Shown in pieces: positions 194-50,913 of a DNA stretch of 64,000 nt. The stretch's first letter is position 1. Each line of letters opens with the position of its first letter. Position numbers and translations under genes: made by a program. The stretch is from positions 3,030,656 to 3,094,655 of the forward strand of contig OZ242195.1 in NCBI GenBank assembly GCA_965205975.1, given 5' to 3'. The notes under the pieces were generated by a model, which saw only the letters and a program-made list of their open reading frames with translations, was not told the DNA's origin and did not search any database. Origin of the DNA: Candidatus Latescibacterota bacterium (GTDB lineage Bacteria > Latescibacterota > UBA2968).

Positions 194-2227
194 CTACCAC
201 TTGATGCGCAAGCTGAATTGCATCTCGCGCGGAGAATCCCAATAGTTGCCGATATCGTTGATTTCGGGTGCTTGCAGACCCAGCGCAAGAATATCGACAT
301 TGGTAGGCTCTAAACCCATGATGCCATACTGCTGATAGCGATCAGAATCCCAATCTTCCGGGACCCCACCAAGGGCATTCTGGCGCCAGTCCTTCTGATT
401 AAACAAATTGTATATCTCCACAGCCACGGTTATGTTCACGCCCGACATATTGCCAAATACCTTCTCGGCATTGAAGTCTGCACGCGTATGGAGGGGACCT
501 TGACGGAATCCCTGAATACCGCCCGTGCTATACGTAAACCTGTTACCCGCGTAGAGATAATACACCAGGTTGGAGCGAAGATTGCCCAGAGCTTTGCCAC
601 CAAAAGGACCGTAGTTCGATGGCGTCGCAAACAAGAACGTAATCGAACCATAGCTGCGGCGGTCGGCGGTCAGCGGGGCGCGCTCGCCAGATTCCTGGTT
701 GTGCGCCACTGCCAGCGTACCTTCGCCACTTCCCGGATTGCCGGGATGGTTGCCAGCGCGTTCCCAATATTCCCTGTCTCCATCGTCGTAATGGCCCAGA
801 CTCGATCGGGCTTCATCGGCGACAAACTGCGCGCCTTCTGACGAATAGTGAGAATACCAGGGAATCCACGACCACGCACCACCTGTGCCAGTGAAATTCA
901 CTATTCTGGTATGTTGAGTCCGCAAATAAATATTCGCCTGGTTTCCATACGCCTCAATGTAGTGATTATCGGGCAACCCTTCGCGACGGGCTTTTTCCTG
1001 CAATGACACGGGAATCTCTGCACCCGTCGTGGGATCGACATCCCAGGTGTTCCAATAGTACCCACTGGCTACGAACTGAGAGTCGGGCCATACATCGCGG
1101 CGGTGCGCGCTATTGCGCCCTCCGTCTGCCCACTGCAGGTTGTAGCCTACATTGAACGAGAACATGTTCGAGAATTTCTTGCGCAAATTGATCTCGAAAC
1201 CGCGGACATCGCGCCAGTCGCCCGGTCCAGAACCTTGAACGCCCGTCACATACTGATGGCCTCCTGGATCGATCCACTGCTGTGAGGCGCTTCTGATCCT
1301 ATTGCCCGACGCCTTGTAAAAAGTCGTCAAACCGAGCACATAATCGCTCACAAAGTTCCAGTCTAAGCCTACCTCAAAAGAAGTGGTTTCTTCGGGAGGC
1401 AAATACGGCGTGCCGTGCCGTGATCCCGAGTCATTGAACTCGTTGAACTGTTCGCCGGGATCAATCACGCCATTGCCATTCAGATCTCTATCCACGGCCT
1501 CATTGGACGTGAATTCGTTCATGAACATTTCGTGGAATTGCGGGCGCTGCGTAAACCGACCGTAGAAGAAGCGCACGAGGCTCTTTTCTGTAATCGGATG
1601 CGACACGCCAATGCGAGGCTGAAATGCTTTGATCGTGGGTCCCTTGGTTGTGGGAATATAGGCGGAACGCGTCATGCCATTCCAGGGAGCCTTAGCACCG
1701 TACCAGGCATCGGAGTCTTTGATATAGGTATTCGGGAAGAAAAGCTCGCCCCTTATACCCGCATTCACAATCATCCCCTCAAACTCGATCTTGTCCTGAA
1801 TATAGACACCAAAATCAAGGGGATTGAGGCCCACATTGTCCCCACTGGGCCAGAATGCCGTATCTGTATAGTTCTGGGAGAACCAGCGCAGGCGACGGTG
1901 CGTGGGACCATCTGACCACCGCTGCTGATACCAGTTGTTGTAGCGGATGATTTCCACACCGGCTTTCACAAAGTTCTGCTTGTTCACCTGGCTGGAAAGA
2001 TCTGCCTTAAAGCTCAACCGCTTGTAGCCATACATGCTCCAGTTGTGCGTTTCGCGGTAAATCGTGTAGTGACCTGCCGCATCCTTCACACTCGAAGACG
2101 TCAGTTTGTCACCCACCAAAAAGTGGGGATGAAATCCCGTTGTGTCGCGCGTCGTCGCCGAATACCCCAAATTCACTTCGTAAAAAGTCTTGGGAGACAG
2201 AGAATGCGTCACAGCACCGTAAAACAA
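194..2227 (-). CDS. TonB-dependent receptor, C-terminal beta-barrel portion. Probably the same gene as 2284..3468, split by a frameshift.
   Basis: 677-aa ORF rich in beta-strand Gly/Tyr/Asn motifs and ending ...FSLRIKW, the aromatic C-terminus typical of outer-membrane barrels. The listed start is a TTG. The frame stays open upstream to 2261 and overlaps the end of the upstream ORF. Confidence 0.65.
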   Translation of the reverse strand: MFYGAVTHSLSPKTFYEVNLGYSATTRDTTGFHPHFLVGDKLTSSSVKDAAGHYTIYRETHNWSMYGYKRLSFKADLSSQVNKQNFVKAGVEIIRYNNWYQQRWSDGPTHRRLRWFSQNYTDTAFWPSGDNVGLNPLDFGVYIQDKIEFEGMIVNAGIRGELFFPNTYIKDSDAWYGAKAPWNGMTRSAYIPTTKGPTIKAFQPRIGVSHPITEKSLVRFFYGRFTQRPQFHEMFMNEFTSNEAVDRDLNGNGVIDPGEQFNEFNDSGSRHGTPYLPPEETTSFEVGLDWNFVSDYVLGLTTFYKASGNRIRSASQQWIDPGGHQYVTGVQGSGPGDWRDVRGFEINLRKKFSNMFSFNVGYNLQWADGGRNSAHRRDVWPDSQFVASGYYWNTWDVDPTTGAEIPVSLQEKARREGLPDNHYIEAYGNQANIYLRTQHTRIVNFTGTGGAWSWIPWYSHYSSEGAQFVADEARSSLGHYDDGDREYWERAGNHPGNPGSGEGTLAVAHNQESGERAPLTADRRSYGSITFLFATPSNYGPFGGKALGNLRSNLVYYLYAGNRFTYSTGGIQGFRQGPLHTRADFNAEKVFGNMSGVNITVAVEIYNLFNQKDWRQNALGGVPEDWDSDRYQQYGIMGLEPTNVDILALGLQAPEINDIGNYWDSPREMQFSLRIKW

Positions 2228-2283
2228 GGCATCTGTGGTAACGTAAGTTACCCGTTGGATTTACGACGTGCAAAAAGATATTT

Positions 2284-3468
2284 TTACCGCTGTTGCGCAA
2301 ATCCAATCTGCCGCCTTCGGTCGGGCCACCAAAGGTTTTCACTGCTATTGTAAACCCCCCCTAATCGCAACTTCAAGCTGGGAGAAGCAGAAAACGTCAG
2401 CTTCCCCGTATTCCGCGTATTTGGGGGCGTCGTCAAATTGGCATTCAACAATGCCTGTGGCTCTTTGCGCCAGACCGTACTGGCAAAAAATGTCATGTCC
2501 TGACTCAGCGGACCCGCGATATTGGCATCGATGCGATGTCCCATTTTGCCCGTGTAGTCCAGGCGCTTGTGCGCCTGCACGATGTCATTGGCGCCATCGC
2601 CATCGAGATCAGCGGGGATCTCGACCTGCTCTGCAACCCAGGCGGCATTATCCCACTGGTTGCTACCCCGGTGCATGGGCGAATCGTACACATTCGCACC
2701 CCAGTGCTTCTGTCCGGCAGGTGTGAATCGATAGTCCAGCATACCGCTGTATGACGAACCACCATCGCGCGTCACCATCGAAACCACGCCACCCTGGGCA
2801 TTGCCATACTCGGCGTTGTAACCACCCGTGATCACCTGGAGTTCCTGAACCGCACTCTTGTTCAAGGTGCGTCCAATACCCGTGCGAGAACCATAGGAGT
2901 CGGTCGTTGAAATGCGAACGCCATCCACGATGTATGCCACATCCTCGCGGTCTCCGCCGCGGATCATAAGCTCATCGCCTTCGGCATCGATTGAAACGCC
3001 AGCCTGAAGCTCGATGAACTCGCCCATATCGCGCACGATGGGCACGGCTTCCAGATCCTCGGCACTCATAATATACTTACTCGTCGTCTTATCTGGCTCA
3101 ACGGGCGGGCGCTCTGCAATCACTGTGATTTCGCCCAATTCCAGCGCAGCTTCTCGAATCTGGAAATCAACCGTCGTCGTCAAGTCAACTTGAACCCTGA
3201 TGTTGGTCTGACGCTGTGAATCATAACCCACCAGCGAGGCCGTCATCGAATACGTGCCGGGATCGACGAGCAAAATCACAAAAAATCCATCGCTATCGGT
3301 GACCGCACCGCGCTGTGTGCCTTCAATCACCACATTGGCACCCGGCAATACCTCACCCGTCTGCGCGTCGCGCACTGTACCCTGCATTTTTCCCGTTGTC
3401 GCGGCATGTGAAATACCCGCGCTAACAAGCAAGGACAGCACAACTATTGAAAGTATCTTTTGCATCAA
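2284..3468 (-). CDS. TonB-dependent receptor, N-terminal part: signal peptide, carboxypeptidase-regulatory-like (CarbopepD_reg) domain and plug domain.
   Basis: Signal peptide MMQKILSIVVLSLLVSAGISHA. Motif GTVRDAQTGEVLPGANVVIEGTQRGAVTDSDGFF is typical of the CarbopepD_reg domain that precedes TonB plugs. Plug-like segment ...ELGEITVIAERPP...DGVRIS.... Ends at a TAA 56 nt upstream of the barrel ORF, in a different frame. Confidence 0.7.
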   Translation of the reverse strand: MMQKILSIVVLSLLVSAGISHAATTGKMQGTVRDAQTGEVLPGANVVIEGTQRGAVTDSDGFFVILLVDPGTYSMTASLVGYDSQRQTNIRVQVDLTTTVDFQIREAALELGEITVIAERPPVEPDKTTSKYIMSAEDLEAVPIVRDMGEFIELQAGVSIDAEGDELMIRGGDREDVAYIVDGVRISTTDSYGSRTGIGRTLNKSAVQELQVITGGYNAEYGNAQGGVVSMVTRDGGSSYSGMLDYRFTPAGQKHWGANVYDSPMHRGSNQWDNAAWVAEQVEIPADLDGDGANDIVQAHKRLDYTGKMGHRIDANIAGPLSQDMTFFASTVWRKEPQALLNANLTTPPNTRNTGKLTFSASPSLKLRLGGVYNSSENLWWPDRRRQIGFAQQR

Positions 3469-3480: not shown

Positions 3481-4254
3481 TTAGTCCCAAAAATAAAACT
3501 TGAACCCAGCACTCAGATCAAACATCTGAAGCGGAAATGCCTTATCCAGACCCCATGCATCTCGAGGGCGGAGTTCGCCGAGAATAAAATGATACCGCGC
3601 ACGCACATCCAGCGCGATCGTCTGCGTCACATGCGCTTCCAACCCCAACCCCAACACTGCGGTCACGGCCGTGCGCGTATCTTCCTGACGGTCCATCACT
3701 ACCTGGGGCAAAACATCGCCCTGGGCATCTACATTCGTCGCATCTACACCGTTGGCATCGGTCGGACTCTGCCCGGGCCACACGATATTTTCTGCTACGG
3801 TCTTGTGATCGTACACACCGCCACCCGCGACGATATAGGGCGAAAAACTCCCCTCATCCATTGAACGGTCTGCATTAAAAAACCACAATCCGGACAATAG
3901 CACGCTATTAAAGCGATTCGTGTGCGAACTATTCGGGTTGATATCTTTGCTGCTATATTGTTTGGCTGTCAAAGCCTTGGGAGACCAGGTAAACTCACCG
4001 GTTTCCAGAGCACCACCATCCATCTGGGTGTGGTGAAACTCGGCTTCAACGGTCAGACGAGAGCTACTCACACGACTGGCAGTAAGCCCCCATTTATCCA
4101 CACCACTGCCAAACCGCTCACCAAAGGTGAACATGGGATTGGTATAGCTGACAAACCCGCCCAAACCCCATTTGCCGGCAACCTGAGCCGATGACATGCT
4201 TGCCGAAGCCAAAATACCTGCAGCGACAAAACTCAGAACTTTAAACCATCTCAA
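3481..4254 (-). CDS. Outer-membrane beta-barrel protein (OmpA-like / porin-family small barrel).
   Basis: Signal peptide MRWFKVLSFVAAGILASASMSSAQ. Alternating amphipathic beta-strand pattern. C-terminal ...AGFKFYFWD aromatic terminus. Confidence 0.55.
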   Translation of the reverse strand: MRWFKVLSFVAAGILASASMSSAQVAGKWGLGGFVSYTNPMFTFGERFGSGVDKWGLTASRVSSSRLTVEAEFHHTQMDGGALETGEFTWSPKALTAKQYSSKDINPNSSHTNRFNSVLLSGLWFFNADRSMDEGSFSPYIVAGGGVYDHKTVAENIVWPGQSPTDANGVDATNVDAQGDVLPQVVMDRQEDTRTAVTAVLGLGLEAHVTQTIALDVRARYHFILGELRPRDAWGLDKAFPLQMFDLSAGFKFYFWD

Positions 4255-4554
4255 AGTGCTACCTCCTTTCGCAAACTGCGAAAAATGAACGACTTAACAA
4301 CTTTACTATGCAACGCAAAACAAATCTGTACGCTATTCACCACCTCCTTTTGTTTGTTATCACATCTGAAACATATAACCAAAAAATAGCTATCAAGACA
4401 TAATAGATTGAAACTTTGTTTCCAAATTATTTCCAAAAATTCACTTTAATGTAAAAAAAAGTAACACGCTATGCAATCATTTTTTTCAGCAATCATTTAC
4501 AATGCAAACACCGGATCGCGGCTTAAATGACAGGGCGAAGCAGGCCGCGATAAC

Positions 4555-4578
4555 GGGACGGCACAGGGGCCGTCCCTT
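4555..4578 (-). terminator. Hairpin (GGGACGGC..GCCGTCCC) downstream of the cytochrome gene. Putative terminator.
   Basis: 8-bp perfect inverted repeat located about 40 nt 3' of the stop of the minus-strand ORF 4619..5830. Confidence 0.3.
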
Positions 4579-4618
4579 ACGCCGATAACCTAATACCTCC
4601 CCTCTGTGTTCATCCGTG

Positions 4619-5830
4619 TTAATCTGTGGTTGAATTTCTTGCCTCTAACCGCAACCGCTTTGCCTCCGTGCGGATCTTATCCATCTCCATCTTCATCCGC
4701 ACAATACCCTCCCAATGCGTATAATCTGGCGAATGGTGATACGCCGCCTTAAACGTGGTCGCGTGATAAAACTTGAACAACCTGAAAAACGCCTGTTCAA
4801 TCTCCGATGTATTTTCGTACAATTGCTGCCCACCCATTTCAAAAGCGTGCCCAACCACTGGATTCGCCGGACGGTCTTCGGGCATGGGATCCAGCGCATT
4901 TTCGTCGTACAACGCCTTAATCAACGCATAAGACTCCGCAACCAGCGCGTCTGCCTCGCGCTTAATCGCATCTGCACGCTCGAGGCTCTCGCGAGAAAAC
5001 CGATTGGAATGACACGGCGCACACACCTGCAACATCGCATTCCGATTCGCTTCAAACTCCTCTTTCGTCAACCGCTTCATCGCCAGATGCGGCAGAAAAT
5101 CCTCCTCGAGCGCGGCACCCGTAAACACCGCACCCAACCCGATATTGGGCACATGCCCGTGATCGCCATTGGGCATGTGGCACGTCACGCAACTCGGCGA
5201 CTTCTCGGCATCTCTATCATTATAATATAGAACACCGTGAATACTCGTTTTATACGCCTCCATCACGGGATGGTCCGGACCGCCGTGACAAACGGCACAG
5301 GCCTCGGGTTCTCGCGCAAGCGCAGCACTAAATTCATGACTCGGATGACAGGTATTGCACCCCCCCACGCTACCATCGGCAAACCGGGCACCAATGCTGT
5401 GACACCCCATACACCCCTCTTCTTGCATCGCGCGCGACTGCGCCAAAAAACGCGCATCCGACAACGCGGCCAGTTCTGCATCGGCATGCCCGCTCTCTGC
5501 AAATGCCTCGACCTCTTCTGCATGGCATTTACCACACATACCCGCCGACACCTGTCCCCGAACAGCAAAAACCGTCTCGTGGTTCTCCCCATGACAATCC
5601 GCACACCCCACATTGGCTCGAAAATGGGCACTCTCTCGCCACTGTTTGTCCATGCCCGGATCGATATTCCGATGGCATCCTTCGCACGACTGGTCACTCT
5701 GGATACGCCACAAAAAAACCGGATGTTCAACAAACTGAACCGCCTCCTCGGGCTGCAAAAAATAAAACACACCAAAGGCGCAACCCAATACCAGCACGCC
5801 AACACCGACAATTTTCATCCAGACCTTCAC
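4619..5830 (-). CDS. Membrane-anchored octaheme c-type cytochrome (HAO/ONR/OTR-like multiheme family).
   Basis: N-terminal TM helix IVGVGVLVLGCAFGVFYFL. Eight CxxCH motifs (CEGCH, CADCH, CGKCH, CMGCH, CNTCH, CAVCH, CVTCH, CAPCH), followed by a long helical C-terminal region. Confidence 0.7.
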   Translation of the reverse strand: MKVWMKIVGVGVLVLGCAFGVFYFLQPEEAVQFVEHPVFLWRIQSDQSCEGCHRNIDPGMDKQWRESAHFRANVGCADCHGENHETVFAVRGQVSAGMCGKCHAEEVEAFAESGHADAELAALSDARFLAQSRAMQEEGCMGCHSIGARFADGSVGGCNTCHPSHEFSAALAREPEACAVCHGGPDHPVMEAYKTSIHGVLYYNDRDAEKSPSCVTCHMPNGDHGHVPNIGLGAVFTGAALEEDFLPHLAMKRLTKEEFEANRNAMLQVCAPCHSNRFSRESLERADAIKREADALVAESYALIKALYDENALDPMPEDRPANPVVGHAFEMGGQQLYENTSEIEQAFFRLFKFYHATTFKAAYHHSPDYTHWEGIVRMKMEMDKIRTEAKRLRLEARNSTTD

Positions 5831-5982
5831 AATTCACGCCCTTCCAATTAGGCCCCCTTCCTACCCCAAAATGCAACCACCGATGAACACAGATGAACAC
5901 GGATGGACACGCTTCTACTTCGTGTACCTTCGTGTCGTGAACTGCTATCGCAGTTGTACCCCGTTCCGTGAATTAACTGCGT

Positions 5983-8784
5983 CTATTCACTCAATTCGCG
6001 CAACAAATCGCGCGCCTGCACATTGCCCGGCTCTCGCGCAATCACGCGCCGCAAAACCGCAACCGCGCTATCTCGCTGTCCACTTATGGCATAAGCCTGT
6101 CCCATAAACAACTCCAATCCCTGCGCTTCTGGCTCCAGTATCCACGCTTGCCGATATACAGACAGCGCACCTTCTATATCGCCGCGCTCCTGTAAAACCG
6201 TACCCAGCACAGTAAGCGCGGGCACATAAAAAGGATCGACAATCAACGCATCCAGCAAAAGGGATTCCGCAGCCTCTAACTCGCCCAAATCAGCGCGAAT
6301 AAGCCCCTGCATCGCATACACATCAGCGCGGTTGGCATGGTATTTCACCGCAACCTCAAAATGCGGCAACGCATCTGCGAGCGCACCCCGCACATAAACG
6401 CGGTGCCCGGCGTCAAAAGCCGAATCCGATTTTGCTTTCCCCGCTTCTCGCGCCTGCCTGCCCAATCCAAACGATCCCGTACCCGCATCCTCCATTTCCA
6501 ACGCCCTGTGGTATGCCGCGCGCGCCAATGCCCAATCGCCCGACAGCGCGTGTGCAGTCCCTCTTTCCACCCAATCGCCTATCGGCATCTCATCCCACTC
6601 ATAATCATCGCGCACCTCGCCATCCCCAGCCGAAAACGCCAATAACGCGAGTTGTCGAATCGCTGGCACGTATCCCGGCGCAACAGCAAGTGCGCGGCGA
6701 TAGGCTTCAATAGCACCTGCGCGATCCCCACTGCCCCACCGCGCATCCCCCACAGCCGTCTGCAAAACCGGCGAACCATCGCGCACATCGTCAAAAGCCG
6801 TATCTGCATAGCGCCCATGGTGCAACAGCAATGCACCTGTGCGCAACCGGGAAGTCAAATCGCTCTTCCCCTTCAGCAAACCCCTCATCTCCTCAAAACG
6901 CTCCTGTTTTCGCGCCAATCGCGCCAGATCCGCCGCGGTCTCCGGGTGCAGGGGATCTAACTTCGCAACAATCTCAAATTCCCGCCTCGCATCTTCAAAA
7001 AGCCCCTGCGCTTCATAGACCTGCCCCAAACTCTCGTGAAAACCCGGATCATCGCCCTGCACGCCATACACCACATCGCGATGCTCCTCAAGTGCCCTGC
7101 GAAACGCATCGCCCACAGCAGAACCATCCGGCAAATAGCCAATATCCATCAGCGCGAACGGTGCTTGCACCCGCACAATACGCGCCGAATCGGACAACGC
7201 ATTCAAAAGCGCGGGCAAACCGCGCACATCGCCCAAACGCCCCAGCGAAATCGCCGCCTTCATCCGCACCATCGCATGTGAGTCATCCATCGCCTCAACC
7301 AGCGCCGGCACCACACGCGCATCCCCCAAACCGCCCAGCAAAGACGCAGCCGCTGCGCGCCACACCGCACTCTCACCCCCGTCGTTTACCAACCGCGCCA
7401 ACGGCACCACACCACTGCCCTTTTGCCCATTGGCAATCGCTGTTGTACGCGCCACAATTTCGTCCTGATAATCGCCATACCACTGCTTTGCCCACGACGA
7501 AGCCCATTGTGCGGACTTATCGCCGTGACACTGATTGCACGCATTGGGCACGCCATTGACCACCGTATTTTCCGGTGCAGGAGATGCAATGCGATGATCC
7601 GTCAGATTCTCTCCCGTCACATAGTGATACGGCATGTGACACTGCACGCATTGATTGCCCACACTCCCCGCGCGGTGATGCCCATGCGCGACCGGATCGG
7701 CTGCAATGTCTTCATGACACGTCTCGCACAACCCCACGCCATTCCGATCCGCCACCAGATCGACATCGCGCGCTGTTCCGTGCGCGTCGTGGCATGTCGT
7801 ACACGTCAACTCGCCCTGAATATAACACGCACTCATCAAATGCAATGCTGCGGGATACAAATAAACCCTGGGCTGTCCATCGGGATAAAAAATCGCCTCG
7901 TCATCTGGCAACACAAGAGAATAATAATCGTAAAAGTTCTCACCTGGCAAATACCCGGTCGCCACAATTTCCTTGGCCGCATGACACTGGGCACACACCT
8001 CGACAGACCGTTCCTTATCCAGCGACCGCAATAACAGCAAATGCAACGGGGCATTGACCTGTCCGCGCGTCTCATCGTGTTTGCCCGACGGCCCATGGCA
8101 CGCCTCGCAATCAATACTCAGACTACCCACAGTCGTGCGATAAGACTGGGACGCCACATCGTAATGCTTTTGCACCCGGCTGGCATGGCAATCAAAACAG
8201 TGAAAATTCCAGGTGCGTCCCGCATTCGTCCAATAATAATAATCTTCTCTCGCCAAAGGCCGCGACTGAGCCACCACACCTCCTTCTTGAGCATCGACCC
8301 AATCATTTGTCGCGCCATCGTGATACAGAGGCAACACCTGCCAACGCCCATTGGGAAAAGCCGTCAAATAAGCCTGGTGCTGCCGCTTGCCAATCGCGTA
8401 ATCCACGCGGTATGCTCCAACGCGCCCTTCCTCATCTTCAGTCTCCATATAATACGCACCATCCTTGCGAAACATACGCGAACGCACACCGCCATACACA
8501 TGGGACACATTGTCAAAATCGCCCACAATCGTCGAATCACTCGGCACAGTCATCGCGACACTGTGCAAACTCTGCCGCCACTCGGCATACTTGTCGGTAT
8601 GGCAGATCGCGCACCGTTCCAACCCGGTAAACCCCGGCTCAGAAGCGCGCACCAAATTGGGCACCTCGCGCTCCCGGCTGCACGACGCAAACACCAGAAT
8701 CACCCATAAAAAGCAACCACAGATGAACACCGATAAACACCGATAAAAAGCAAGATACAAGATGTGAAATTTTCTGCACCGCAT
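5983..8784 (-). CDS. Multiheme (8x CxxCH) c-type cytochrome lipoprotein fused to PBS-lyase HEAT-like repeats and a C-terminal TPR array.
   Basis: Lipobox LVFASC. CxxCH motifs CAICH, CFDCH, CEACH, CAQCH, CTTCH, CETCH, CVQCH and CNQCH. Then HEAT-like AMVRMKAAISLGRLGDVRGLPALLNALSD repeats, then multiple TPR-like repeats to the C-terminus. 933 aa. Confidence 0.65.
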   Translation of the reverse strand: MRCRKFHILYLAFYRCLSVFICGCFLWVILVFASCSREREVPNLVRASEPGFTGLERCAICHTDKYAEWRQSLHSVAMTVPSDSTIVGDFDNVSHVYGGVRSRMFRKDGAYYMETEDEEGRVGAYRVDYAIGKRQHQAYLTAFPNGRWQVLPLYHDGATNDWVDAQEGGVVAQSRPLAREDYYYWTNAGRTWNFHCFDCHASRVQKHYDVASQSYRTTVGSLSIDCEACHGPSGKHDETRGQVNAPLHLLLLRSLDKERSVEVCAQCHAAKEIVATGYLPGENFYDYYSLVLPDDEAIFYPDGQPRVYLYPAALHLMSACYIQGELTCTTCHDAHGTARDVDLVADRNGVGLCETCHEDIAADPVAHGHHRAGSVGNQCVQCHMPYHYVTGENLTDHRIASPAPENTVVNGVPNACNQCHGDKSAQWASSWAKQWYGDYQDEIVARTTAIANGQKGSGVVPLARLVNDGGESAVWRAAAASLLGGLGDARVVPALVEAMDDSHAMVRMKAAISLGRLGDVRGLPALLNALSDSARIVRVQAPFALMDIGYLPDGSAVGDAFRRALEEHRDVVYGVQGDDPGFHESLGQVYEAQGLFEDARREFEIVAKLDPLHPETAADLARLARKQERFEEMRGLLKGKSDLTSRLRTGALLLHHGRYADTAFDDVRDGSPVLQTAVGDARWGSGDRAGAIEAYRRALAVAPGYVPAIRQLALLAFSAGDGEVRDDYEWDEMPIGDWVERGTAHALSGDWALARAAYHRALEMEDAGTGSFGLGRQAREAGKAKSDSAFDAGHRVYVRGALADALPHFEVAVKYHANRADVYAMQGLIRADLGELEAAESLLLDALIVDPFYVPALTVLGTVLQERGDIEGALSVYRQAWILEPEAQGLELFMGQAYAISGQRDSAVAVLRRVIAREPGNVQARDLLRELSE

Positions 8785-8796: not shown

Positions 8797-9648
8797 CTAA
8801 CGCGCCTGTACCTCTCCCCGCGCACACCGAAACCCAATATGGGCAAATATTTCGATATCAAAATCGTCGCGCGCCAGAGCTCGCTCTTCCATAATTAAAA
8901 CCGTACTCCGCACAAATACGCGGATACTGGGTTGTGGTGAAAACCAACTCCCACCGCGAAGCGTGCGATCTGGCCCATCTTCCATACCCGAATTTTGCAA
9001 ATTCACCGGATTGTGCCTGGGGCTATTTGCGTAATACGTATGCTGGTATTCATCCACCGTCCACTCCCACACATTGCCCGCCATATCCATCGCGCCATAA
9101 GGACTTGCACCATCTGGATAGCTGCCCACAGGCATGGGACCCGAACTGAAATTGAAATTACACAGCGATTCACTCGCAGGCTCATTGCCCCAGGGAAACA
9201 CGCGCCCATCCGTACCTGCAGCGGCCAACTCCCACTGCGCTTCACTCGGCAATTGCAAACCCGCCCACAGGCAATAATCCCGCGCCTGAGACCACAAAAC
9301 CCCCACCGCTGGCTGATCGGCTTGATCAAACCCCTCTAATCGAAAGTACTGCGGCTCTTCACTTCCCGTAGCCTCCGCATAAGCCAAATACTGCGCGTTG
9401 GTCACCTCGTATTTATCGATATAAAATGCGTCGAGCATCACCTCGTGTGGCGGGCGCTCATTGGAGGGACCATCGCTCGACCCCATCGTAAAAGTGCTGG
9501 CCGGAACAAAAACCTGCACATGCTCCGTACCCGCAGGCGTGGTCACAACAGATTCTTCAACCACATACTCTGGATCGGTGGGCTTGCCACAGGCCATGGC
9601 CAATGCAATACCCAAAACGCCGAACCGATAAATCGTTTTTGGTATCAT
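8797..9648 (-). CDS. Formylglycine-generating enzyme family protein (SUMF1/FGE-sulfatase domain), lipoprotein.
   Basis: Lipobox LAMACG. FGE-domain signatures MGSSDGPSNERPPHEVMLDAFYIDKYEVTNAQYLAY, GNVWEWT and RGGSWFS. Confidence 0.7.
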   Translation of the reverse strand: MIPKTIYRFGVLGIALAMACGKPTDPEYVVEESVVTTPAGTEHVQVFVPASTFTMGSSDGPSNERPPHEVMLDAFYIDKYEVTNAQYLAYAEATGSEEPQYFRLEGFDQADQPAVGVLWSQARDYCLWAGLQLPSEAQWELAAAGTDGRVFPWGNEPASESLCNFNFSSGPMPVGSYPDGASPYGAMDMAGNVWEWTVDEYQHTYYANSPRHNPVNLQNSGMEDGPDRTLRGGSWFSPQPSIRVFVRSTVLIMEERALARDDFDIEIFAHIGFRCARGEVQAR

Positions 9649-9712
9649 TGCATTCTCCTGCGACAGGCGCGAATCAACGAATCTGCGAAAGCATTTGGGT
9701 GGCGGGGTGGGG

Positions 9713-9766
9713 TTCGTCTATTCTCTATTCGTCTATTCGTCTATTCGTCTATTCGTCTATTCGTCC
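9713..9766. repeat. Tandem octamer repeat (TTCGTCTA / CGAATAGA unit, about 6 copies) in the FGE-YcaO intergenic region.
   Basis: Directly visible as ggttcgtctattctctattcgtctattcgtctattcgtctattcgtcc. Same family as the repeats at 26229-26262 and 33379-33402. Confidence 0.9.
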
Positions 9767-9768
9767 TC

Positions 9769-10779
9769 TCACATCCAAACAATATAATTGCCCGAATCCA
9801 CCATAATGCGATGCACATACGTCTCGATCATCGCGTGGTCCCGCTCGTGTTCTGTAGTCTCTAAGCTAAAAGGCCGCAACACCGGAATCTGCATCTCTGG
9901 ATCTGTCCAATCTTGCACATAAACCGAAGATTTCATACCACTCAACACCACCTGAATATCGGTTATCAAATCATCCGTAAAATGATTGGGCAAATCCCAC
10001 AGTGCAATCTCGGCATTAAAAGTCTGCAAATCAGATACAAACCGCGTCTTGTGACTCTGAACAGTCTCATTAAACGCCCGCTGCAACGCGATGCGCCCAT
10101 CCAAATGCGTACACGTACGCACCAGAGGCCCCAAATCTTTGGGACACACCACCGCGTGAACCGTCGTCACCTTCTCATTCTCCCCCGGCACGGCCACAGC
10201 CAGCATCTTTTCTGCAACGCGAGGAGCAAAATCCGTCAAATTTGGATCGATAAACTGCCGGTGTTCCAATCCCGGCCAATAAAAATGCCTCCCCACATCC
10301 AGGTGTTCGTGCATCTCCAGCAAACCGTGAAACACGCACTCCAGCACAGTATTGCCCGCCGAAACGCCATTTGCCGAATCATTCAAATGCGGCACATCCG
10401 AAGCCTTCATATCGGTCGGCACAAGTTCGACATCAGAAGTCAACTCATAAATCGGAGTCTCTCGCCCGCTCGCCAGCGCGTCAAAAAACGAAATGCGCTC
10501 GACCGCCTCTGCCATCGCCCCCGCCAGCACCTGCTGTTTGGAAAGCCCTTTGCCCATCGTGCGAAGCGCGATACCCTCCATCAGCGGCCCTTCGTATTTG
10601 CGAAACAGCGCCGACTGCACGTAATCCGTATAACAATCGGCAATCCACACCGTATCGTAAAACCGCCGCGCGCGCGTTTGAAACCGACACTTCTTGGACA
10701 GCGCCTCCCCGAACCGCTCAATAGTCTCTTCAAACGGAACCGTGCGATCGGCAATAACGATATGATGCGACTCACTCAT
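9769..10779 (-). CDS. YcaO-domain protein (ATP-dependent peptide backbone-modifying / cyclodehydratase superfamily), short standalone form.
   Basis: Contains the canonical YcaO nucleotide-binding signature ...RTMGKGLSKQQVLAGAMAEAVERISFFDA... (GKG...A.AEA.ER). 336 aa. Overlaps the upstream TPR gene by 4 nt (ATGA coupling). Confidence 0.6.
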   Translation of the reverse strand: MSESHHIVIADRTVPFEETIERFGEALSKKCRFQTRARRFYDTVWIADCYTDYVQSALFRKYEGPLMEGIALRTMGKGLSKQQVLAGAMAEAVERISFFDALASGRETPIYELTSDVELVPTDMKASDVPHLNDSANGVSAGNTVLECVFHGLLEMHEHLDVGRHFYWPGLEHRQFIDPNLTDFAPRVAEKMLAVAVPGENEKVTTVHAVVCPKDLGPLVRTCTHLDGRIALQRAFNETVQSHKTRFVSDLQTFNAEIALWDLPNHFTDDLITDIQVVLSGMKSSVYVQDWTDPEMQIPVLRPFSLETTEHERDHAMIETYVHRIMVDSGNYIVWM

Positions 10780-11999
10780 TGCGCCCGTGCCCGATTCATA
10801 TCTTCAACCGCCTCGGCAAACCGTCCCATTTGCCGAAACGTCTCCGCGCGGAGTTCTCGTGCCCATCCATTTTCGGGATCGATATCCAACGCCCGCGTAA
10901 AATCTGAAACCGCTGCCTCATACTGCCCCAGCATCCGTCGGGACTCCCCGCGATTTGCCCAAACCCACGCATCACCATCATCCATCATCACCGCCCGATC
11001 AAAATCGATCAGCGACGCCTCGGGATCATTTTCCATCCGCAACGCGACGCCGCGCCCCATAAGCGCCCACAGATGATCGGGAAAATTCTCCAGCACCCGT
11101 GTAAAATCGCGTATTGCTTCGGCACTTCGCCCCAATTGCCGCAACATATCACCCCGCGCGGCCCACAAATCCGGATCACCAGGCGCGACGACGAGTGCGC
11201 GGTCAAAATCCAAAAGCGCATCCTCCAATTGACCGATCTCCCGCAGCACCTCGCCCCGCCCGATCAACGCGCCCAGATGATCGGGCATAGCCTTCAAAGC
11301 CTCCCCAAACATCTCCATCGCAGCCCCAGCTTCATCAGCCTGTCGATAGACCTCCGCCCGTCCGGCAAACGCATCCGGATGCCCATTGCCCACCGCAATC
11401 GCCCGATCAAAATCGCCCGCCGCCGCATCGAAATGCCCCAACTGCATCAGCACATGCCCGCGGCTGATCAGCGCGCCAAAATAATCTGCATCCAACGCCA
11501 AAACCCGATTGAGATCCCCCAGTGCCTCCTCAAACCGCCCCATCTCGCGCAGGGTCTCCCCCCGGCTGGCAAGTGCCTGCGTATTGTCCGGATCGAGCGC
11601 AACAGCCTTTCCAAAGCTATCTATCGCCGCATCAAAATGCCCCATCAACCCGCAGGCAATCGCGCGATTACTCCACACCCATGGATCGTCTGGCGCCAGA
11701 GCGATTGCGCGGTCAAAATCCGCAATCGCCGCATCAAATTGTCCCAATTGTCCATAAGTAATCCCGCGATGCACAAACACAACGGCATCGCTATCACACG
11801 CCGCAATCGCCGCATCAAAACCCGCAACAGCCGCTTTCAGATCGCCACCATCGCGGTGCGCGATGGCGCGCTGAACCACAGCTTCAAAGTCATTTATAGA
11901 TAGAGGCATAAAAGAAAAAGTGGGAACCGTCAGACACCCAAAACGTAAACACAATGTAGATAAACCAAACCCCAAAATCAAGCGCAAACCCCGTGACAT
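10776..11999 (-). CDS. TPR-repeat protein, translationally coupled to the YcaO gene.
   Basis: About 9 tandem 34-aa TPR units (A..G.....G.....A...F..A). N-terminal hydrophobic segment. Confidence 0.65.
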   Translation of the reverse strand: MSRGLRLILGFGLSTLCLRFGCLTVPTFSFMPLSINDFEAVVQRAIAHRDGGDLKAAVAGFDAAIAACDSDAVVFVHRGITYGQLGQFDAAIADFDRAIALAPDDPWVWSNRAIACGLMGHFDAAIDSFGKAVALDPDNTQALASRGETLREMGRFEEALGDLNRVLALDADYFGALISRGHVLMQLGHFDAAAGDFDRAIAVGNGHPDAFAGRAEVYRQADEAGAAMEMFGEALKAMPDHLGALIGRGEVLREIGQLEDALLDFDRALVVAPGDPDLWAARGDMLRQLGRSAEAIRDFTRVLENFPDHLWALMGRGVALRMENDPEASLIDFDRAVMMDDGDAWVWANRGESRRMLGQYEAAVSDFTRALDIDPENGWARELRAETFRQMGRFAEAVEDMNRARAQ

Positions 12000-13477: not shown

Positions 13478-14179
13478 ATGTCCCACCGCCAAACGCTCAT
13501 CAACGCATTCAAACGCATCCTCGAAATATCGGATCACGACCATCTCTATTTGCCCTTTCAACGCGACAGCAAATTGCGGGCAAAACACTTTCCCGGCGCA
13601 GGGTCTAAAATCGGGCGAAAAAAACTCATCGACGCATATCTCCTTGAATTTGGCGACACAAACCCCGACGAAAAATTGCTCCAACACGCCACCTATCCCT
13701 GGATTCACGGGTACGACGCCAGCCTCACGCATATTCTCGATGACCTCCGAAAACACGAAAAAAAAGCACCCGCCGAACTTTCTACGGACCGAAGACGCGC
13801 ACTCGAAAAGAAATTTACCCGCACGGGTGCCGAAGAAATCTCTGCCTTCTGGAGCGTATATGCCGCCGCCGACAACAGCTATCGCAAAAGCGTCATAGAA
13901 ATGCTAGCCCGCGTCAAACCACCCGAAACGGCCCCCCCGACCGTTCAGCCTACACAAAAGCCCACAACTCGCGCCCCCTCTCAAATAGAACCCACCACAC
14001 AGTCGGGATATGCTTTGATGGGCGCGCTTATCTTCTTTGTCCCCACCTTTATATTTACTATAATACAATATTGGCGACTCCCAAATGAAAGCCACTATAT
14101 CGCCTTATCAATCGCCGGATTTTTTGGGATAGTCACACTCATCTTCCTCATCGACTACTTGCGTAAACGCAACACATGA
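13478..14179 (+). CDS. Hypothetical membrane protein (two C-terminal TM helices).
   Basis: 233-aa ORF with a Pro/Thr-rich linker and C-terminal hydrophobic helices ALMGALIFFVPTFIFTII and IALSIAGFFGIVTLIFLI. No recognisable family. Confidence 0.4.
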   Translation: MSHRQTLINAFKRILEISDHDHLYLPFQRDSKLRAKHFPGAGSKIGRKKLIDAYLLEFGDTNPDEKLLQHATYPWIHGYDASLTHILDDLRKHEKKAPAELSTDRRRALEKKFTRTGAEEISAFWSVYAAADNSYRKSVIEMLARVKPPETAPPTVQPTQKPTTRAPSQIEPTTQSGYALMGALIFFVPTFIFTIIQYWRLPNESHYIALSIAGFFGIVTLIFLIDYLRKRNT

Positions 14180-14261
14180 CCACAATGAACAAAGGCACCT
14201 ACCCCCGGCCCCTTCCTGAGAGGAAGGGGAGAAAACCTACCATCCCTCGCTTCTTGCCCTT

Positions 14262-14292
14262 CATCTGCGTCCATCTGCGTCATCTGCGGATA
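14262..14292. repeat. Tandem 9/10-mer repeat (CATCTGCGT)n ending in CATCTGCGGATA, immediately 5' of the ATG at 14293.
   Basis: tcatctgcgtccatctgcgtcatctgcggata. The same element recurs at 29235-29270, 36130-36172 and 63014-63052. Confidence 0.9.
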
Positions 14293-16071: not shown

Positions 16072-16072
16072 C

Positions 16073-17668: not shown

Positions 17669-18378
17669 ACCTCCTTAAAAAATGCAGTGCCGAATTTATC
17701 GGCGCATTTGCCATCGTCTTTGGCGGATGCGGGGCCATTGCCATCAACCAGCTATCCGAAGGCGCCATCACCCACGTGGGTATTGCAACATCCTTTGGCC
17801 TCATCGTCATGACAATGGTCTATGCCACCGGGCACATCTCGGGCGCGCACTTCAACCCCGCTGTCACCACCGCCTTTGCCTTCACCCGCCACTTTCCCAA
17901 ACGCGAAATTCTGCCCTACATCGCAGCGCAATGTCTCGGAGCCATCGCCGCCAGCGGCATTCACCTCTGGTCTCTCACACCCATCTTAAAAGCAAAACAC
18001 CCGCAGCAAATCCTCAACCTGGGTGTCACACAACCGATGGATAACCTTTTTGCCACAGCTTTCATCTGGGAATTCTTGCTCACCTTCTTCTTAATGCTCG
18101 TCATCATGGCCGTTGCCACAGACTACCGCGCCACGGGTCAAGCCGCCGGCCTGGCCATTGGCGGCACCATCTGGTTTGAAGCCATGTTTGCCGGTCCGCT
18201 CTCTGGTGCCTCCATGAACCCAGCGCGCAGCCTTGGTCCCGCTCTGGCTGCTGGCGATTGGACCCATTTCTCCGCTTACGTACTCGGCCCCATTCTCGGC
18301 GCAACTGCAGGCGCGTTTTTTTACGAATTCATCCGCTGCCATTCCGACCCCGGCACAGACGCCAAAGGTTGTTGTTAA
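17656..18378 (+). CDS. MIP-family channel (aquaporin/aquaglyceroporin). Candidate arsenite channel, given the adjacent arsC.
   Basis: Two NPA boxes (GAHFNPAVT and GASMNPARS), six predicted TM helices, 240 aa. Confidence 0.85.
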   Translation: MDTVNLLKKCSAEFIGAFAIVFGGCGAIAINQLSEGAITHVGIATSFGLIVMTMVYATGHISGAHFNPAVTTAFAFTRHFPKREILPYIAAQCLGAIAASGIHLWSLTPILKAKHPQQILNLGVTQPMDNLFATAFIWEFLLTFFLMLVIMAVATDYRATGQAAGLAIGGTIWFEAMFAGPLSGASMNPARSLGPALAAGDWTHFSAYVLGPILGATAGAFFYEFIRCHSDPGTDAKGCC

Positions 18379-38878: not shown

Positions 38879-39363
38879 GGTGACTTTTTTTCCTTTTTAC
38901 AGAAATTTAAGGACGCTATCTCCACTTCGTTGATCATGCGATAAACCACATCTCCAGATTTGTTGCGATCATAAAAACTCAATGGCAACTGGATCAAGTG
39001 GTCGAAAAGATGGCTCCTTATATCCAGCATCATGCGATTGTTTATCCAAGCAAATAGATAGTTTGAGCAAAAACCAATGATGATATTGCCGACTGTAACG
39101 CCCAGGAGCAGAAGCAAAATAAATATCAACAGCTCATAATCTTCATTTGGAAAAACATCATCAATGATAATTTTCATGATATAGGGAAAAGCCAACGAGC
39201 TAACAGTCCCCAGGATCATGAGAACAAAAACAATGCTTTGGTGTATCCAATAAGGTTTCAGAAATTTCAAGAAATGATAAAAGACATGTCCCTGCTTAGA
39301 GAGATTGAAAATGGCTGATATGACTGGTTGTTTGTTCTTCATATTCACCCGTGATGTAAACAA
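38875..39363 (-). pseudogene. Truncated ABC exporter gene. Only the N-terminal transmembrane domain fragment remains, and the reading frame runs into the IS256 right end.
   Basis: MKNKQPVISAIFNLSKQGHVFYHFLKFLKPYWIHQSIVFVLMILGTVSSLAFPYIMKIIIDDV...LPLSFYDRNKSGDVVYRMINEVE is the first about 150 aa of a type-I ABC exporter TMD. The TAG stop is formed by the IS terminal sequence ...GGAGCTAC. No ATPase domain follows. Confidence 0.7.
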
Positions 39364-39384
39364 CTCAAAGTGTGCGTATGCATA

Positions 39385-42074: not shown

Positions 42075-42124
42075 TGGTTACCCTTGGCAATCAAGAGACG
42101 CTTGATCTCAGCTAACTTTCGCCA

Positions 42125-43766: not shown

Positions 43767-43784
43767 AGTATCACCTCCTTTCCT

Positions 43785-46474: not shown

Positions 46475-46524
46475 TGGTTCTCCTCAGCAATTAGAGGATG
46501 CTTGAGCACACCTCACTTTTACCA

Positions 46525-50879: not shown

Positions 50880-50913
50880 AAACCTCTCGCAGTGTTTAGT
50901 TCATAACGTTGAT

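What the first reader, a model, noticed from the sequence alone, without database searches (positions are those of the whole stretch)
3481..8784. Two adjacent octaheme c-type cytochromes (one membrane-anchored, one lipoprotein fused to HEAT+TPR repeats) next to an outer-membrane barrel gene
The two cytochromes each carry exactly eight CxxCH motifs and sit back to back on the minus strand, directly upstream of a small OM beta-barrel gene and a TonB-dependent receptor.

The second cytochrome's C-terminal 500 aa are PBS-lyase HEAT and TPR repeats, which is not a known HAO/ONR/OTR architecture.

The arrangement could represent a nitrogen- or sulfur-oxyanion reductase module, or a periplasm-to-outer-membrane electron conduit.
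Basis: partly seen in the sequence, partly recalled or inferred. Interest (0 to 1): 0.55.

Follow-up and report, generated by a model that had tools for sequence, protein, structure and literature searches.

The report
Paired octaheme cytochromes: Tyr-less HAO plus partner
Two neighbouring eight-heme cytochrome genes in a Latescibacterota genome form a gene pair kept together across several phyla, most likely a periplasmic reductase (a hydroxylamine-oxidoreductase relative built to run in reverse) and its electron-carrying partner, whereas the outer-membrane genes next door are unrelated neighbours.

Summary
Genes 4619-5830 and 5983-8784 lie in tandem on the minus strand, and each encodes exactly eight CxxCH motifs. 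They are the only multiheme ORFs in the window.

Cyt1 (403 aa) is a true HAO-family octaheme. It has seven invariant distal His and an Asp-His pair. It lacks the cross-linking Tyr: its C-terminus aligns without gaps to the Tyr-less nitrite reductase Kustc0458. I therefore predict a reductase, not a nitrifier enzyme.

Cyt2 (933 aa) is a lipoprotein. Its heme domain belongs to the OcwA/MccA/c554 clade (Foldseek: OcwA, E 2e-13), not to HAO, ONR or OTR. The heme domain fused to HEAT and TPR repeats is a very large unnamed family (1218 clusters at E<=1e-30).

Among HAO homologues at 40% identity or more, 29 of 33 loci keep a cyt2-like gene adjacent. These loci span Latescibacterota, Planctomycetota, Myxococcota and Acidobacteria. 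The pair also moves as a unit into other genomic contexts.

The barrel is an 8-stranded OmpA/OmpX-type protein. It follows a 365-nt gap and has its own conserved upstream region. It travels with the TonB-dependent receptor only inside Latescibacterota. I reject the outer-membrane conduit idea.

The substrate is inferred, not shown: probably nitrite, NO or hydroxylamine.

The parts
4619..5830 (-). cyt1: a 403-aa HAO-family octaheme cytochrome c. It has an N-terminal hydrophobic anchor (residues ~7-25), 8 CxxCH motifs and an Asp186-His187 pair. It lacks the cross-link Tyr; the sequence at that position is SPDYTHWEG (residues 367-375).
   Evidence: Pfam PF13447: 79.3 bits against a cut-off of 21.9.
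PDB: KsHOX 4n4j 2.2e-31, Kustc0458 6h5l 1.3e-28, HDH 6hif, NeHAO 1fgj.
The C-terminal 104 aa match Tyr-less Kustc0458 best, at 7e-7 and without gaps.
Seven invariant non-motif His in 31 homologues.
Motif count.
5831..5982 (-). 152-nt spacer between cyt2 and cyt1. It has no terminator-like site and contains three tandem GTGTYCATCY units.
   Evidence: Sequence and terminator scan. In relatives the spacer shrinks to 45 nt, 17 nt, or a 4-nt overlap.
5983..8784 (-). cyt2: a 933-aa lipoprotein made of an octaheme cytochrome domain, HEAT repeats and TPR repeats.
   Evidence: ORF, Pfam and NCBIfam scans, motif count.
8680..8784 (-). cyt2 signal peptide with lipobox VFAS-C35.
   Evidence: Pattern match, conserved in orthologues P0121 (VFASC) and P0122 (LLSAC).
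7435..8679 (-). cyt2 octaheme domain (residues 36-450), with an OcwA/MccA/c554-clade fold. It includes a beta-rich insert between hemes 1 and 2.
   Evidence: AF2 model, pLDDT 76.8.
Foldseek: OcwA 6i5b E 2.2e-13, TM 0.53; MccA 3e-4; NrfA 0.14.
phmmer: OcwA 3e-10.
Invariant across 40 homologues: 8 CxxCH, only 6 non-motif His, and K206.
7135..7422 (-). cyt2 HEAT / PBS-lyase-type HEAT repeats (residues ~455-550).
   Evidence: PF13646 1e-13 and PF03130 9e-9. Matches to alphaRep HEAT designs.
5995..7047 (-). cyt2 TPR repeat region (residues ~580-930).
   Evidence: TPR_2, TPR_14, TPR_19 and related families, E values 1e-20 to 1e-12.
4555..4576 (-). 8-bp GC hairpin (GGGACGGC..GCCGTCCC) 43 nt after the cyt1 stop codon. 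It has no U-tract. It may mark the end of the transcription unit.
   Evidence: Fold dG -39.3 kcal/mol for the 89-nt segment, z -2.35. Present in L008 and L016, absent in L006, L011 and L012. It is therefore weak evidence.
8797..9648 (-). FGE-sulfatase-family lipoprotein 12 nt upstream of cyt2. It is a possible operon member but not obligatory.
   Evidence: PF03781 2e-48. Adjacent to cyt2 or cyt2 paralogues in most Latescibacterota loci. Absent in L018, L019 and L090.

Best explanation
Cyt1 and cyt2 form one functional unit: a periplasmic, membrane-tethered, two-cytochrome reductive module.

Cyt1 is the enzyme. It is an HAO-family octaheme protein with seven bis-His relay hemes and one five-coordinate catalytic heme (heme 4, CMGCH). 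It has no Tyr-heme cross-link. Like Kustc0458/HAOr and the epsilon-HAOs, it should therefore run reductively on a small N-oxide (nitrite, NO or hydroxylamine).

Cyt2 is its dedicated partner. It is an eight-heme wire of the c554/MccA/OcwA clade, lipid-anchored to a membrane. Its HEAT and TPR tail probably docks it to cyt1 or to an upstream donor complex. It feeds electrons to cyt1, mirroring in reverse the HAO-c554 couple of nitrifiers.

Shown:
- family membership of both proteins
- absence of the cross-link Tyr
- heme and ligand counts
- cross-phylum gene linkage

Inferred:
- a physical complex
- direction of electron flow
- substrate
- the link to the quinone pool (no NapC/NrfH-type gene is nearby)
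For: Cyt1 is an HAO-family enzyme:
- Hemes 2-8 align in register with solved HAO, HOX and HDH structures.
- Exactly seven invariant non-motif His for eight hemes.
- GPDHP aligns with GIDH(D226/H227) of KsHOX.

Cyt1 lacks the cross-link Tyr:
- The segment holding the cross-link Tyr in the oxidative enzymes (QTYGNG in 4n4j and 6t5e) is replaced by DYTHWEG. This aligns without gaps to DVSWWWG of Kustc0458.
- Kustc0458 lacks the cross-link, reduces nitrite to NO, and cannot oxidise hydroxylamine (PMC8042395).
- Trp at this position is described for reductive HAOs (bioRxiv 10.64898/2026.07.28.741245).

The two genes are linked:
- 29 of 33 loci with an HAO homologue at 40% identity or more, and with adequate flanks, carry a cyt2-like gene on the same strand next to it. 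Gene order is flipped in Myxococcota and Acidobacteria, and the genes often overlap by 4-17 nt.
- In L090 the pair sits between dnaE and a GFO_IDH gene, with none of the other window neighbours.

Cyt2 looks like a partner cytochrome:
- Its fold is closest to OcwA, then MccA. That clade contains c554, the natural HAO partner (PMC9250108).

Genomic context:
- One relative (P0030) places the pair between a nosR/D/F/Y-ApbE cluster and nnrS.
Against: - No activity, expression or interaction data exist for any member.
- The substrate is not constrained by sequence. HAO-family clades outside the nitrifier and anammox clade have no assigned function, and a sulfur role has been proposed for some (PMC9213671).
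- No quinol dehydrogenase is encoded nearby.
- Most members of the cyt-HEAT-TPR family are orphans with no HAO neighbour, for example in Thiocystis and Rapidithrix. Cyt2-type proteins therefore have a function of their own.
- Two Latescibacterota lineages (L021, L002/L026) have the HAO gene without an adjacent cyt2.
- Tyr370, three residues before the aligned position, is present in this subclade, although it is not conserved across the family.
- The mapping of literature Tyr numbering onto PDB chain numbering rests on my own offset reasoning.
Confidence: 0.5

Rival explanations
1. The pair is a sulfur-oxyanion reductase module (sulfite, tetrathionate or polysulfide), with cyt1, cyt2 or both acting on sulfur species.
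For: - The cyt2 fold matches MccA sulfite reductase at E 3e-4.
- Like MccA, cyt2 has eight hemes rather than the nine of OcwA.
- A sulfur role has been proposed for HAO-family proteins of unknown function (PMC9213671).
- The window is rich in sulfatases and has an FGE-family gene adjacent to cyt2.
Against: - All eight cyt2 motifs are CxxCH. The CX15CH motif of MccA is absent.
- OTR appears in neither the sequence nor the fold hits.
- Every characterised HAO-family enzyme acts on N compounds.
- The P0030 context is nos and nnrS.
Confidence: 0.15
2. Cyt2 is the catalytic or terminal component. It would be an OcwA-like promiscuous reductase, possibly surface-exposed as a lipoprotein, and cyt1 would be the membrane-anchored electron entry.
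For: - OcwA is a terminal reductase with open-coordination hemes (PMC9250108).
- The cyt2 family has only 6 invariant non-motif His for 8 hemes, plus an invariant Lys206 just after heme 2.
- The family is mostly free-standing.
Against: - Cyt1 keeps the full HAO catalytic layout: 7 distal His, a five-coordinate heme 4, and the Asp-His pair. That is not expected of a mere relay.
- The best-scoring alignments to OcwA suggest cyt2 lacks OcwA heme 5, the NrfA-type catalytic heme.
- Paralogues and partners in other phyla carry inner-membrane-type signal anchors.
Confidence: 0.15
3. It is a periplasm-to-outer-membrane electron conduit, with the barrel or the TonB-dependent receptor acting as a sheath (porin-cytochrome type).
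For: - Adjacency in this window and in 18 of 21 Latescibacterota loci.
- Cyt2 is a lipoprotein.
Against: - The barrel has 8 long strands. Its best fold matches are OmpA, Ail, OmpW and OmpX.
- A 365-nt gap with a separately conserved upstream region precedes the barrel gene.
- The barrel is 12 nt from the receptor gene and belongs to a four-gene block (barrel, receptor, 880-aa protein, PorV-like protein).
- That block is absent from all 34 non-Latescibacterota loci and from L015, L018, L019 and L090.
Confidence: 0.03
4. Cyt1 is an oxidative hydroxylamine oxidoreductase, as automatic 'hao' annotation implies. That would make these bacteria partial nitrifiers.
For: - JGI names homologues 'hydroxylamine dehydrogenase'.
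- A paper on sponge-associated Latescibacterota reads its 'hao' genes as hydroxylamine oxidation and nitrification (PMC12993501).
Against: - The cross-link Tyr is absent, and the C-terminus matches the reductive Kustc0458.
- Cross-link-deficient HAOs do not oxidise hydroxylamine (PMC8042395).
- The hydrazine dehydrogenase equivalog scores 101 bits against a cut-off of 900.
- There is no amo gene or c554/cM552-type context in the window.
Confidence: 0.05

Closest known systems
Kustc0458/Kustc0457 (HAOr) of Kuenenia stuttgartiensis, PDB 6h5l: a Tyr-less HAO that reduces nitrite to NO
   Same: - HAO-family octaheme (1.3e-28).
- No cross-link Tyr.
- The C-terminal helix region aligns without gaps, with a Trp-rich replacement of the Tyr segment.
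- It works with a dedicated cytochrome partner encoded next to it.
   Different: - The Kuenenia partner is a small diheme cytochrome. Here the partner is a 933-aa octaheme-HEAT-TPR lipoprotein of another clade.
- Cyt1 carries an N-terminal membrane anchor.
- Overall identity is only about 30%.
Epsilonproteobacterial HAO (epsilon-Hao) and the 'reverse HURM' idea
   Same: A Tyr-less HAO homologue that reduces nitrite and hydroxylamine in vitro (PMC8042395; PMC3701875, listed). The concept is an HAO run in reverse with a cytochrome partner.
   Different: It is a different clade. The epsilon-Hao systems have no cyt-HEAT-TPR partner, as far as I know.
HAO-cytochrome c554 couple of ammonia oxidisers
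   Same: An HAO-family enzyme encoded next to a partner cytochrome of the c554/MccA/OcwA clade. Cyt2 gives Pfam Cytochrome_C554 hits, and its fold is closest to OcwA and MccA (clade definition in PMC9250108).
   Different: - c554 is a soluble tetraheme protein. Cyt2 has eight hemes, a lipid anchor and about 480 aa of HEAT and TPR repeats.
- Nitrifier HAO has the Tyr cross-link and runs oxidatively.
OcwA of Thermincola potens (PDB 6i5b)
   Same: Best sequence match (3e-10) and best fold match (E 2e-13, TM 0.53) of the cyt2 heme domain.
   Different: - OcwA has nine hemes and is a cell-surface protein of a Gram-positive bacterium without repeat domains.
- Cyt2 has eight hemes and appears to lack OcwA heme 5.
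- Identity is 18-19%.
MccA octaheme sulfite reductase (PDB 4rkm)
   Same: Eight hemes, the same structural clade, and the second-best fold match (3e-4).
   Different: Cyt2 has no CX15CH motif. TM is only 0.32. MccA has no repeat tail. The Cu-site Cys residues were not examined.

Membership tests
HAO family (PF13447; HAO/HOX/HDH/HAOr) | Eight CxxCH motifs in the HAO register | tested here: met
   PF13447 scores 79.3 bits against a cut-off of 21.9. Hemes 2-8 align to 4n4j, 6t5e, 6h5l, 6hif and 1fgj; heme 1 aligns weakly. Motif count.
HAO family (PF13447; HAO/HOX/HDH/HAOr) | Seven bis-His hemes and one five-coordinate catalytic heme | tested here: met
   Exactly seven invariant non-motif His (H69, H84, H115, H165, H198, H224, H365) in 31 homologues. 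This is a count only; the ligation itself was not observed.
HAO family (PF13447; HAO/HOX/HDH/HAOr) | Distal Asp-His pair at the catalytic heme (NeHAO Asp267/His268) | tested here: inconclusive
   D186-H187 (GPDHP) aligns with D-H of KsHOX GIDHD and is conserved as G[PT]D[HN]P. The equivalence to NeHAO 267/268 rests on my own numbering-offset reasoning.
Oxidative HAO (P460-type: NeHAO, KsHOX, HDH) | Cross-linking Tyr (NeHAO Tyr467, BfHAO Tyr449) | tested here: not met
   The aligned position is H372 or W373 in SPDYTHWEG. The segment aligns without gaps to the WWW segment of Tyr-less Kustc0458.
Oxidative HAO (P460-type: NeHAO, KsHOX, HDH) | Covalently linked homotrimer with a 460-475 nm band | not testable with these tools
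   This needs the purified protein.
HAOr (Kustc0458/0457-type) | Adjacent diheme cytochrome partner | tested here: not met
   The neighbour is an octaheme-HEAT-TPR protein. No diheme ORF is present.
NrfA / ONR | CxxCK catalytic heme motif | tested here: not met
   No CxxCK in either protein. NrfA matches only the last two hemes of cyt2. Foldseek E is 0.14.
OTR (octaheme tetrathionate reductase) | Sequence or fold similarity to OTR (1sp3) | tested here: not met
   OTR is absent from the phmmer and Foldseek hit lists for cyt2 and cyt1.
OcwA family | Nine hemes, including two five-coordinate hemes with HH distal pairs | tested here: not met
   Cyt2 has eight hemes. The first HH pair is not conserved. 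H367/H370 align near OcwA H351-H354. The fold similarity is real.
MccA | CX15CH eighth heme motif and a heme-copper site | tested here: not met
   All eight motifs are CxxCH. The Cu ligands were not examined.
Porin-cytochrome conduit (MtrAB / PCC type) | A large outer-membrane porin (roughly 20-26 strands) able to enclose a multiheme cytochrome | tested here: not met
   The barrel model (pLDDT 89.6) has 8 long strands. Its best matches are OmpA, Ail, OmpW and OmpX. The strand numbers quoted for known conduits come from my own knowledge.
Cytochrome-HEAT-TPR family (unnamed) | N-terminal octaheme domain with 8 invariant CxxCH, followed by HEAT and/or TPR repeats, 700-950 aa in total | tested here: met
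   2361 hits at E<=1e-10, mostly 720-790 aa with HEAT and TPR Pfam domains. 1218 cluster representatives at E<=1e-30. Invariant columns.

The most novel reading that the evidence does not exclude
The Tyr-less HAO plus octaheme c554/OcwA-clade partner is a previously unrecognised, cross-phylum respiratory or detoxifying N-oxide reduction module. It may have two catalytic hemes, one in each protein, and it may be the ancestral form of the nitrifier hao-c554 couple, with c554 being a pruned version of such a partner. If so, it would give the first functional context both to HAO clades of unknown function and to the cytochrome-HEAT-TPR family of more than 1200 clusters.
Probability: 0.2. Interest if true: 0.65.

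Novelty: new variant of a known kind. Interest (0 to 1): 0.42.

Why it matters
1. Genes like cyt1 are auto-annotated as 'hao' and read as evidence of nitrification in sponge-associated Latescibacterota (PMC12993501). The missing cross-link Tyr argues for the opposite direction, reduction. That changes the inferred nitrogen-cycle role of these symbionts.

2. HAO-family proteins outside the nitrifier and anammox clade occur in dozens of phyla with no assigned function (PMC9213671). A conserved, often translationally coupled partner gives a concrete handle for expression and biochemistry.

3. The partner belongs to a very large cytochrome-HEAT-TPR family that is unnamed and, as far as the papers I could search show, uncharacterised. 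Linking a subset of it to an HAO enzyme is a first functional clue.

4. Showing that the outer-membrane genes are only lineage-specific neighbours prevents a false 'extracellular electron transfer' annotation.

Tried and rejected
- Outer-membrane conduit. I tested it by structure prediction of the barrel (8 strands) and by synteny. Rejected.

- The first version of the Tyr argument. I initially assumed the cross-link Tyr lay beyond the C-terminus of cyt1. Re-deriving the numbering showed it lies inside the aligned region: the offset between NeHAO and KsHOX chains, and Tyr449/Tyr467. I replaced the argument with the direct alignment of the C-terminal segment.

- Literature look-ups. Maalcke 2014 (PMC3894310) is not held. 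PMC10728637 gave no residue numbers. Searches for a described cytochrome-TPR-HEAT family or an UnbV/ASPIC link found nothing relevant.

- Riboswitch or RNA element in the conserved 220 nt upstream of the barrel gene. There is no Rfam hit and there are no compensatory pairs.

- Intrinsic terminator after cyt1. The hairpin lacks a U-tract, was not called by the scan, and is not conserved in all relatives.

- FG-GAP/UnbV_ASPIC proteins. They recur near the pair in other lineages, but none is encoded in this window.

- Respiratory context. I scanned the rest of the window for respiratory or N-cycle genes and found none. It holds sulfatases, amidases, transporters and a transposase.

- Model coordinates are not exposed, so I could not assign distal ligands to individual hemes in cyt2.

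Full report
**What is there.** On the minus strand the window carries, in order of transcription:
- a TPR protein (10776-11999);
- a truncated YcaO-like protein (9769-10779);
- an FGE-sulfatase-family lipoprotein (8797-9648);
- cyt2 (5983-8784, 933 aa);
- cyt1 (4619-5830, 403 aa);
- after a 365-nt gap, a 257-aa outer-membrane barrel (3481-4254);
- 12 nt further, a TonB-dependent receptor with CarboxypepD_reg and Plug domains (194-3468).

A motif count gives exactly eight CxxCH and no CxxCK in each cytochrome. No other ORF in the 64 kb has more than one.

Three corrections apply:
- The two genes are in tandem, with a 152-nt spacer and no terminator-like site.
- The barrel is not 'directly' downstream. 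It follows a 365-nt gap, and the 220 nt upstream of its start are almost invariant among eight related species.
- The receptor gene is frameshifted here but intact (1091 aa) in relative L006.

**Source organism.** HAO homologues at 92-97% identity come from many Candidatus Latescibacterota MAGs and complete chromosomes. The window is from that phylum.

**Cyt1 is an HAO-family enzyme of the reductive kind.**
- It passes Pfam PF13447 (79.3 bits, cut-off 21.9).
- It matches solved HAO-family structures: KsHOX 4n4j at 2e-31, BfHAO 6t5e, Kustc0458 6h5l at 1e-28, HDH 6hif and NeHAO 1fgj.
- In an alignment of 31 homologues at 32-95% identity, all eight CxxCH are invariant, and so are exactly seven further His. 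That matches seven bis-His hemes plus one five-coordinate heme.
- The GPDHP motif aligns with the Asp-His of KsHOX.

The cross-link Tyr defines oxidative, P460-type HAOs. It is Tyr467 in N. europaea and Tyr449 in B. fulgida, and by my offset reasoning it lies in the QTYGNG segment of 4n4j and 6t5e. Cyt1 has SPDYTHWEG there. When only the last 104 residues are searched, the best hit (7e-7) is an ungapped alignment to Kustc0458, where DYTHWEG pairs with DVSWWWG. Kustc0458/HAOr lacks the cross-link, reduces nitrite to NO, and cannot oxidise hydroxylamine or hydrazine. Epsilon-HAOs without the Tyr reduce nitrite and hydroxylamine (PMC8042395). A Trp at this position is reported for other reductive HAOs.

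Tyr370 occurs three residues earlier in this subclade. Across the family that position is Y, H, I, F or M. I therefore treat the cross-link as absent, with moderate-to-high confidence.

The N-terminus is a Lys-flanked hydrophobic stretch. It is present in all homologues, without a conserved Cys or cleavage motif. A signal anchor is plausible, but I did not test this with a dedicated predictor.

**Cyt2 is not an HAO, ONR or OTR.**
- Its heme domain (residues 36-450) matches OcwA of Thermincola (6i5b) by sequence at 3e-10.
- An AlphaFold2 model built on 40 homologues (pLDDT 76.8) matches OcwA by fold at E 2e-13 and TM 0.53. MccA follows at 3e-4. NrfA is insignificant.
- These proteins, together with c554, form 'clade 3' of the NrfA/HAO superfamily (PMC9250108).
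- The best-scoring alignments pair cyt2 hemes 1-4 with OcwA hemes 1-4 and cyt2 hemes 5-8 with OcwA hemes 6-9. Cyt2 therefore probably lacks the NrfA-type catalytic heme, as MccA does.
- Only six non-motif His are invariant for eight hemes, plus Lys206 just after heme 2 and a 90%-conserved Met78. One or two hemes may thus have unusual or open ligation. I could not resolve this, because model coordinates are not exposed.
- The lipobox VFAS-C35 is kept in orthologues. Paralogues and distant members use signal anchors, ordinary signal peptides or other lipoboxes. The family is therefore periplasm-facing and usually tethered.
- The HEAT (~455-550) and TPR (~580-930) regions are confirmed.

This architecture is unnamed but far from rare. 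A word-indexed search gave 2361 hits at E<=1e-10, mostly 720-790 aa with HEAT and TPR domains. An exhaustive search of 1.84 billion cluster representatives gave 3441 at E<=1e-10 and 1218 at E<=1e-30. Members in Thiocystis and Rapidithrix are orphan genes with unrelated neighbours.

**Which genes belong together.** I searched the window proteins by tblastn against 85 loci fetched around HAO homologues. Among loci with at least 3.5 kb on both sides:

| HAO identity to cyt1 | Loci with a cyt2-like gene adjacent on the same strand | Lineages |
|---|---|---|
| 85% or more | 17 of 18 | Latescibacterota |
| 55-85% | 1 of 3 | Latescibacterota, plus one MAG labelled Gemmatimonadetes |
| 40-55% | 11 of 12 | Planctomycetota, Myxococcota, Acidobacteria, unclassified |
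| below 40% | 0 of 22 | Geobacter, Nitrospirota, Desulfuromonadales, archaea |

Further points on the pair:
- The partner lies upstream in Planctomycetota and downstream in Myxococcota and Acidobacteria. The two genes often overlap by 4-17 nt.
- One locus has a partner on each side of the HAO gene.
- In Latescibacterota chromosome L090 the unit (paralogue, cyt2, HAO) sits between dnaE and a GFO_IDH gene, with none of the other window neighbours.

By contrast, the barrel and the receptor appear next to the HAO gene only in Latescibacterota: 18 of 21 loci there, 0 of 34 elsewhere. There they form a block with an 880-aa protein and a PorV-like protein. The block is missing in L015, L018 and L019, which keep cyt2 and cyt1. 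It is present in L021, L002 and L026, which lack an adjacent cyt2.

The functional unit is therefore the cytochrome pair, not the 'trio'.

**The barrel.** An AlphaFold2 model from 26 homologues (pLDDT 89.6) has eight long strands. Foldseek places it with the OmpA transmembrane domain (6.5e-10), Ail, OmpW, OmpX and NspA. Such barrels have no lumen for a cytochrome. The known porin-cytochrome conduits use porins of roughly 20-26 strands (my own knowledge). I reject the outer-membrane conduit reading.

**How it most likely works (inference).** Cyt1, anchored at the periplasmic face of the membrane, would be the catalytic subunit. It would reduce a small N-oxide at its five-coordinate heme 4. Cyt2, lipid-tethered, would be an eight-heme wire that supplies electrons, with its HEAT and TPR solenoid acting as a docking platform. 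This is the reverse of the HAO-to-c554 flow of nitrifiers, and c554 belongs to the same structural clade as cyt2.

One relative places the pair between a nosR/D/F/Y-SCO1-ApbE cluster and nnrS. That is weak contextual support for N-oxide chemistry.

Several things remain unknown:
- the substrate and the product;
- whether cyt2 has its own catalytic heme;
- how the pair connects to the quinone pool. No NapC/NrfH-type gene is nearby, although a DUF2231 membrane protein recurs next to the pair in Planctomycetota;
- what the recurrent FG-GAP/UnbV_ASPIC neighbours do. None is in this window.

**Comparison with known systems.** Cyt1 is a member of the HAO family and resembles the reductive HAOr and epsilon-Hao enzymes. 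It fails the defining test for oxidative P460 HAOs. Cyt2 works like, but is not a member of, the OcwA (nine hemes), MccA (CX15CH motif and Cu site), NrfA/ONR (CxxCK) or c554 (tetraheme) families. A dedicated cytochrome partner next to a Tyr-less HAO is known (Kustc0457), but that partner is a diheme protein.

In the papers I could search, I found no description of a conserved pairing of a Tyr-less HAO with an octaheme-HEAT-TPR protein. I therefore rate this a new variant of a known kind. It is of moderate interest, mainly because it corrects a likely mis-annotation ('hao' read as nitrification in sponge Latescibacterota, PMC12993501) and because it offers a testable partner for HAO clades of unknown function (PMC9213671).

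Noticed in passing
window 4255-4476 (minus strand): The ~220 nt upstream of the barrel gene are nearly invariant at DNA level across 8 Latescibacterota species. The last 50 nt are 100% identical, which is more conserved than the flanking coding sequence. The region holds a promoter-like TTTACA/AATAAT pair, two AAGGAGG boxes, and a possible 30-codon upstream ORF whose stop overlaps the barrel start codon. There is no Rfam match and no covariation.
   Followed up: partly
window 2228-2283: The TonB-dependent receptor gene is split by a frameshift near an A/T homopolymer run (ORFs 2284-3468 and 194-2227 are in different frames). The orthologue in L006 is one 1091-aa ORF. This is either a pseudogene or an assembly error.
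   Followed up: partly
window 1-36000 versus 38000-52000: GC skew is very strong (-0.2 to -0.3) over the first 36 kb regardless of gene strand. Near 38-52 kb it collapses to about 0 and GC content drops from ~0.53 to 0.41-0.48. A Mutator-family transposase (37640-38824) sits at the boundary, which suggests an inserted island. That island includes duplicated pairs of MacB/FtsX-type permease and beta-propeller genes.
   Followed up: no
window 8797-11999 (minus strand): Upstream of cyt2 lie a TPR protein, a truncated YcaO-like protein (336 aa, overlapping the TPR gene by 4 nt) and an FGE-sulfatase-family lipoprotein. The YcaO and FGE genes travel with cyt2 or its paralogues in most close relatives, but not in L018, L019 or L090. 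FGE-family genes also follow cyt-HEAT-TPR paralogues in P0019 and L026.
   Followed up: partly
window 5893-5922 (minus strand): Three tandem GTGTYCATCY decamers lie in the cyt2-cyt1 spacer. This could be a protein-binding site.
   Followed up: no
window 8680-8784 (cyt2 N-terminus): The window copy has 17 extra residues (YLAFYRCLSVFICGCFL) before the lipobox compared with the 94%-identical orthologue P0121. This may be a small duplication or a mis-placed start codon.
   Followed up: no
window 14176-18378 (+ strand): A fusion of an AhpC/TSA-redoxin domain with a copper type II (PHM/DBH-like) monooxygenase domain (631 aa) is followed by a TPR protein and an aquaporin.
   Followed up: no
related loci L002, L005, L086, L091, L092; contexts of P0019 and P0030: FG-GAP/UnbV_ASPIC (CRTAC1-like) proteins, often with TPR partners, recur within a few kb of the HAO and cyt-HEAT-TPR genes in several phyla. 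In Planctomycetota a DUF2231 membrane protein also recurs there. Neither is present in this window.
   Followed up: partly
homologues P0036-P0045 and P0071-P0084: Some HAO homologues are ~600 aa with an extra Cytochrome_C554-type region. Others are fused to PKD domains. These are architectural variants of the same clade.
   Followed up: no
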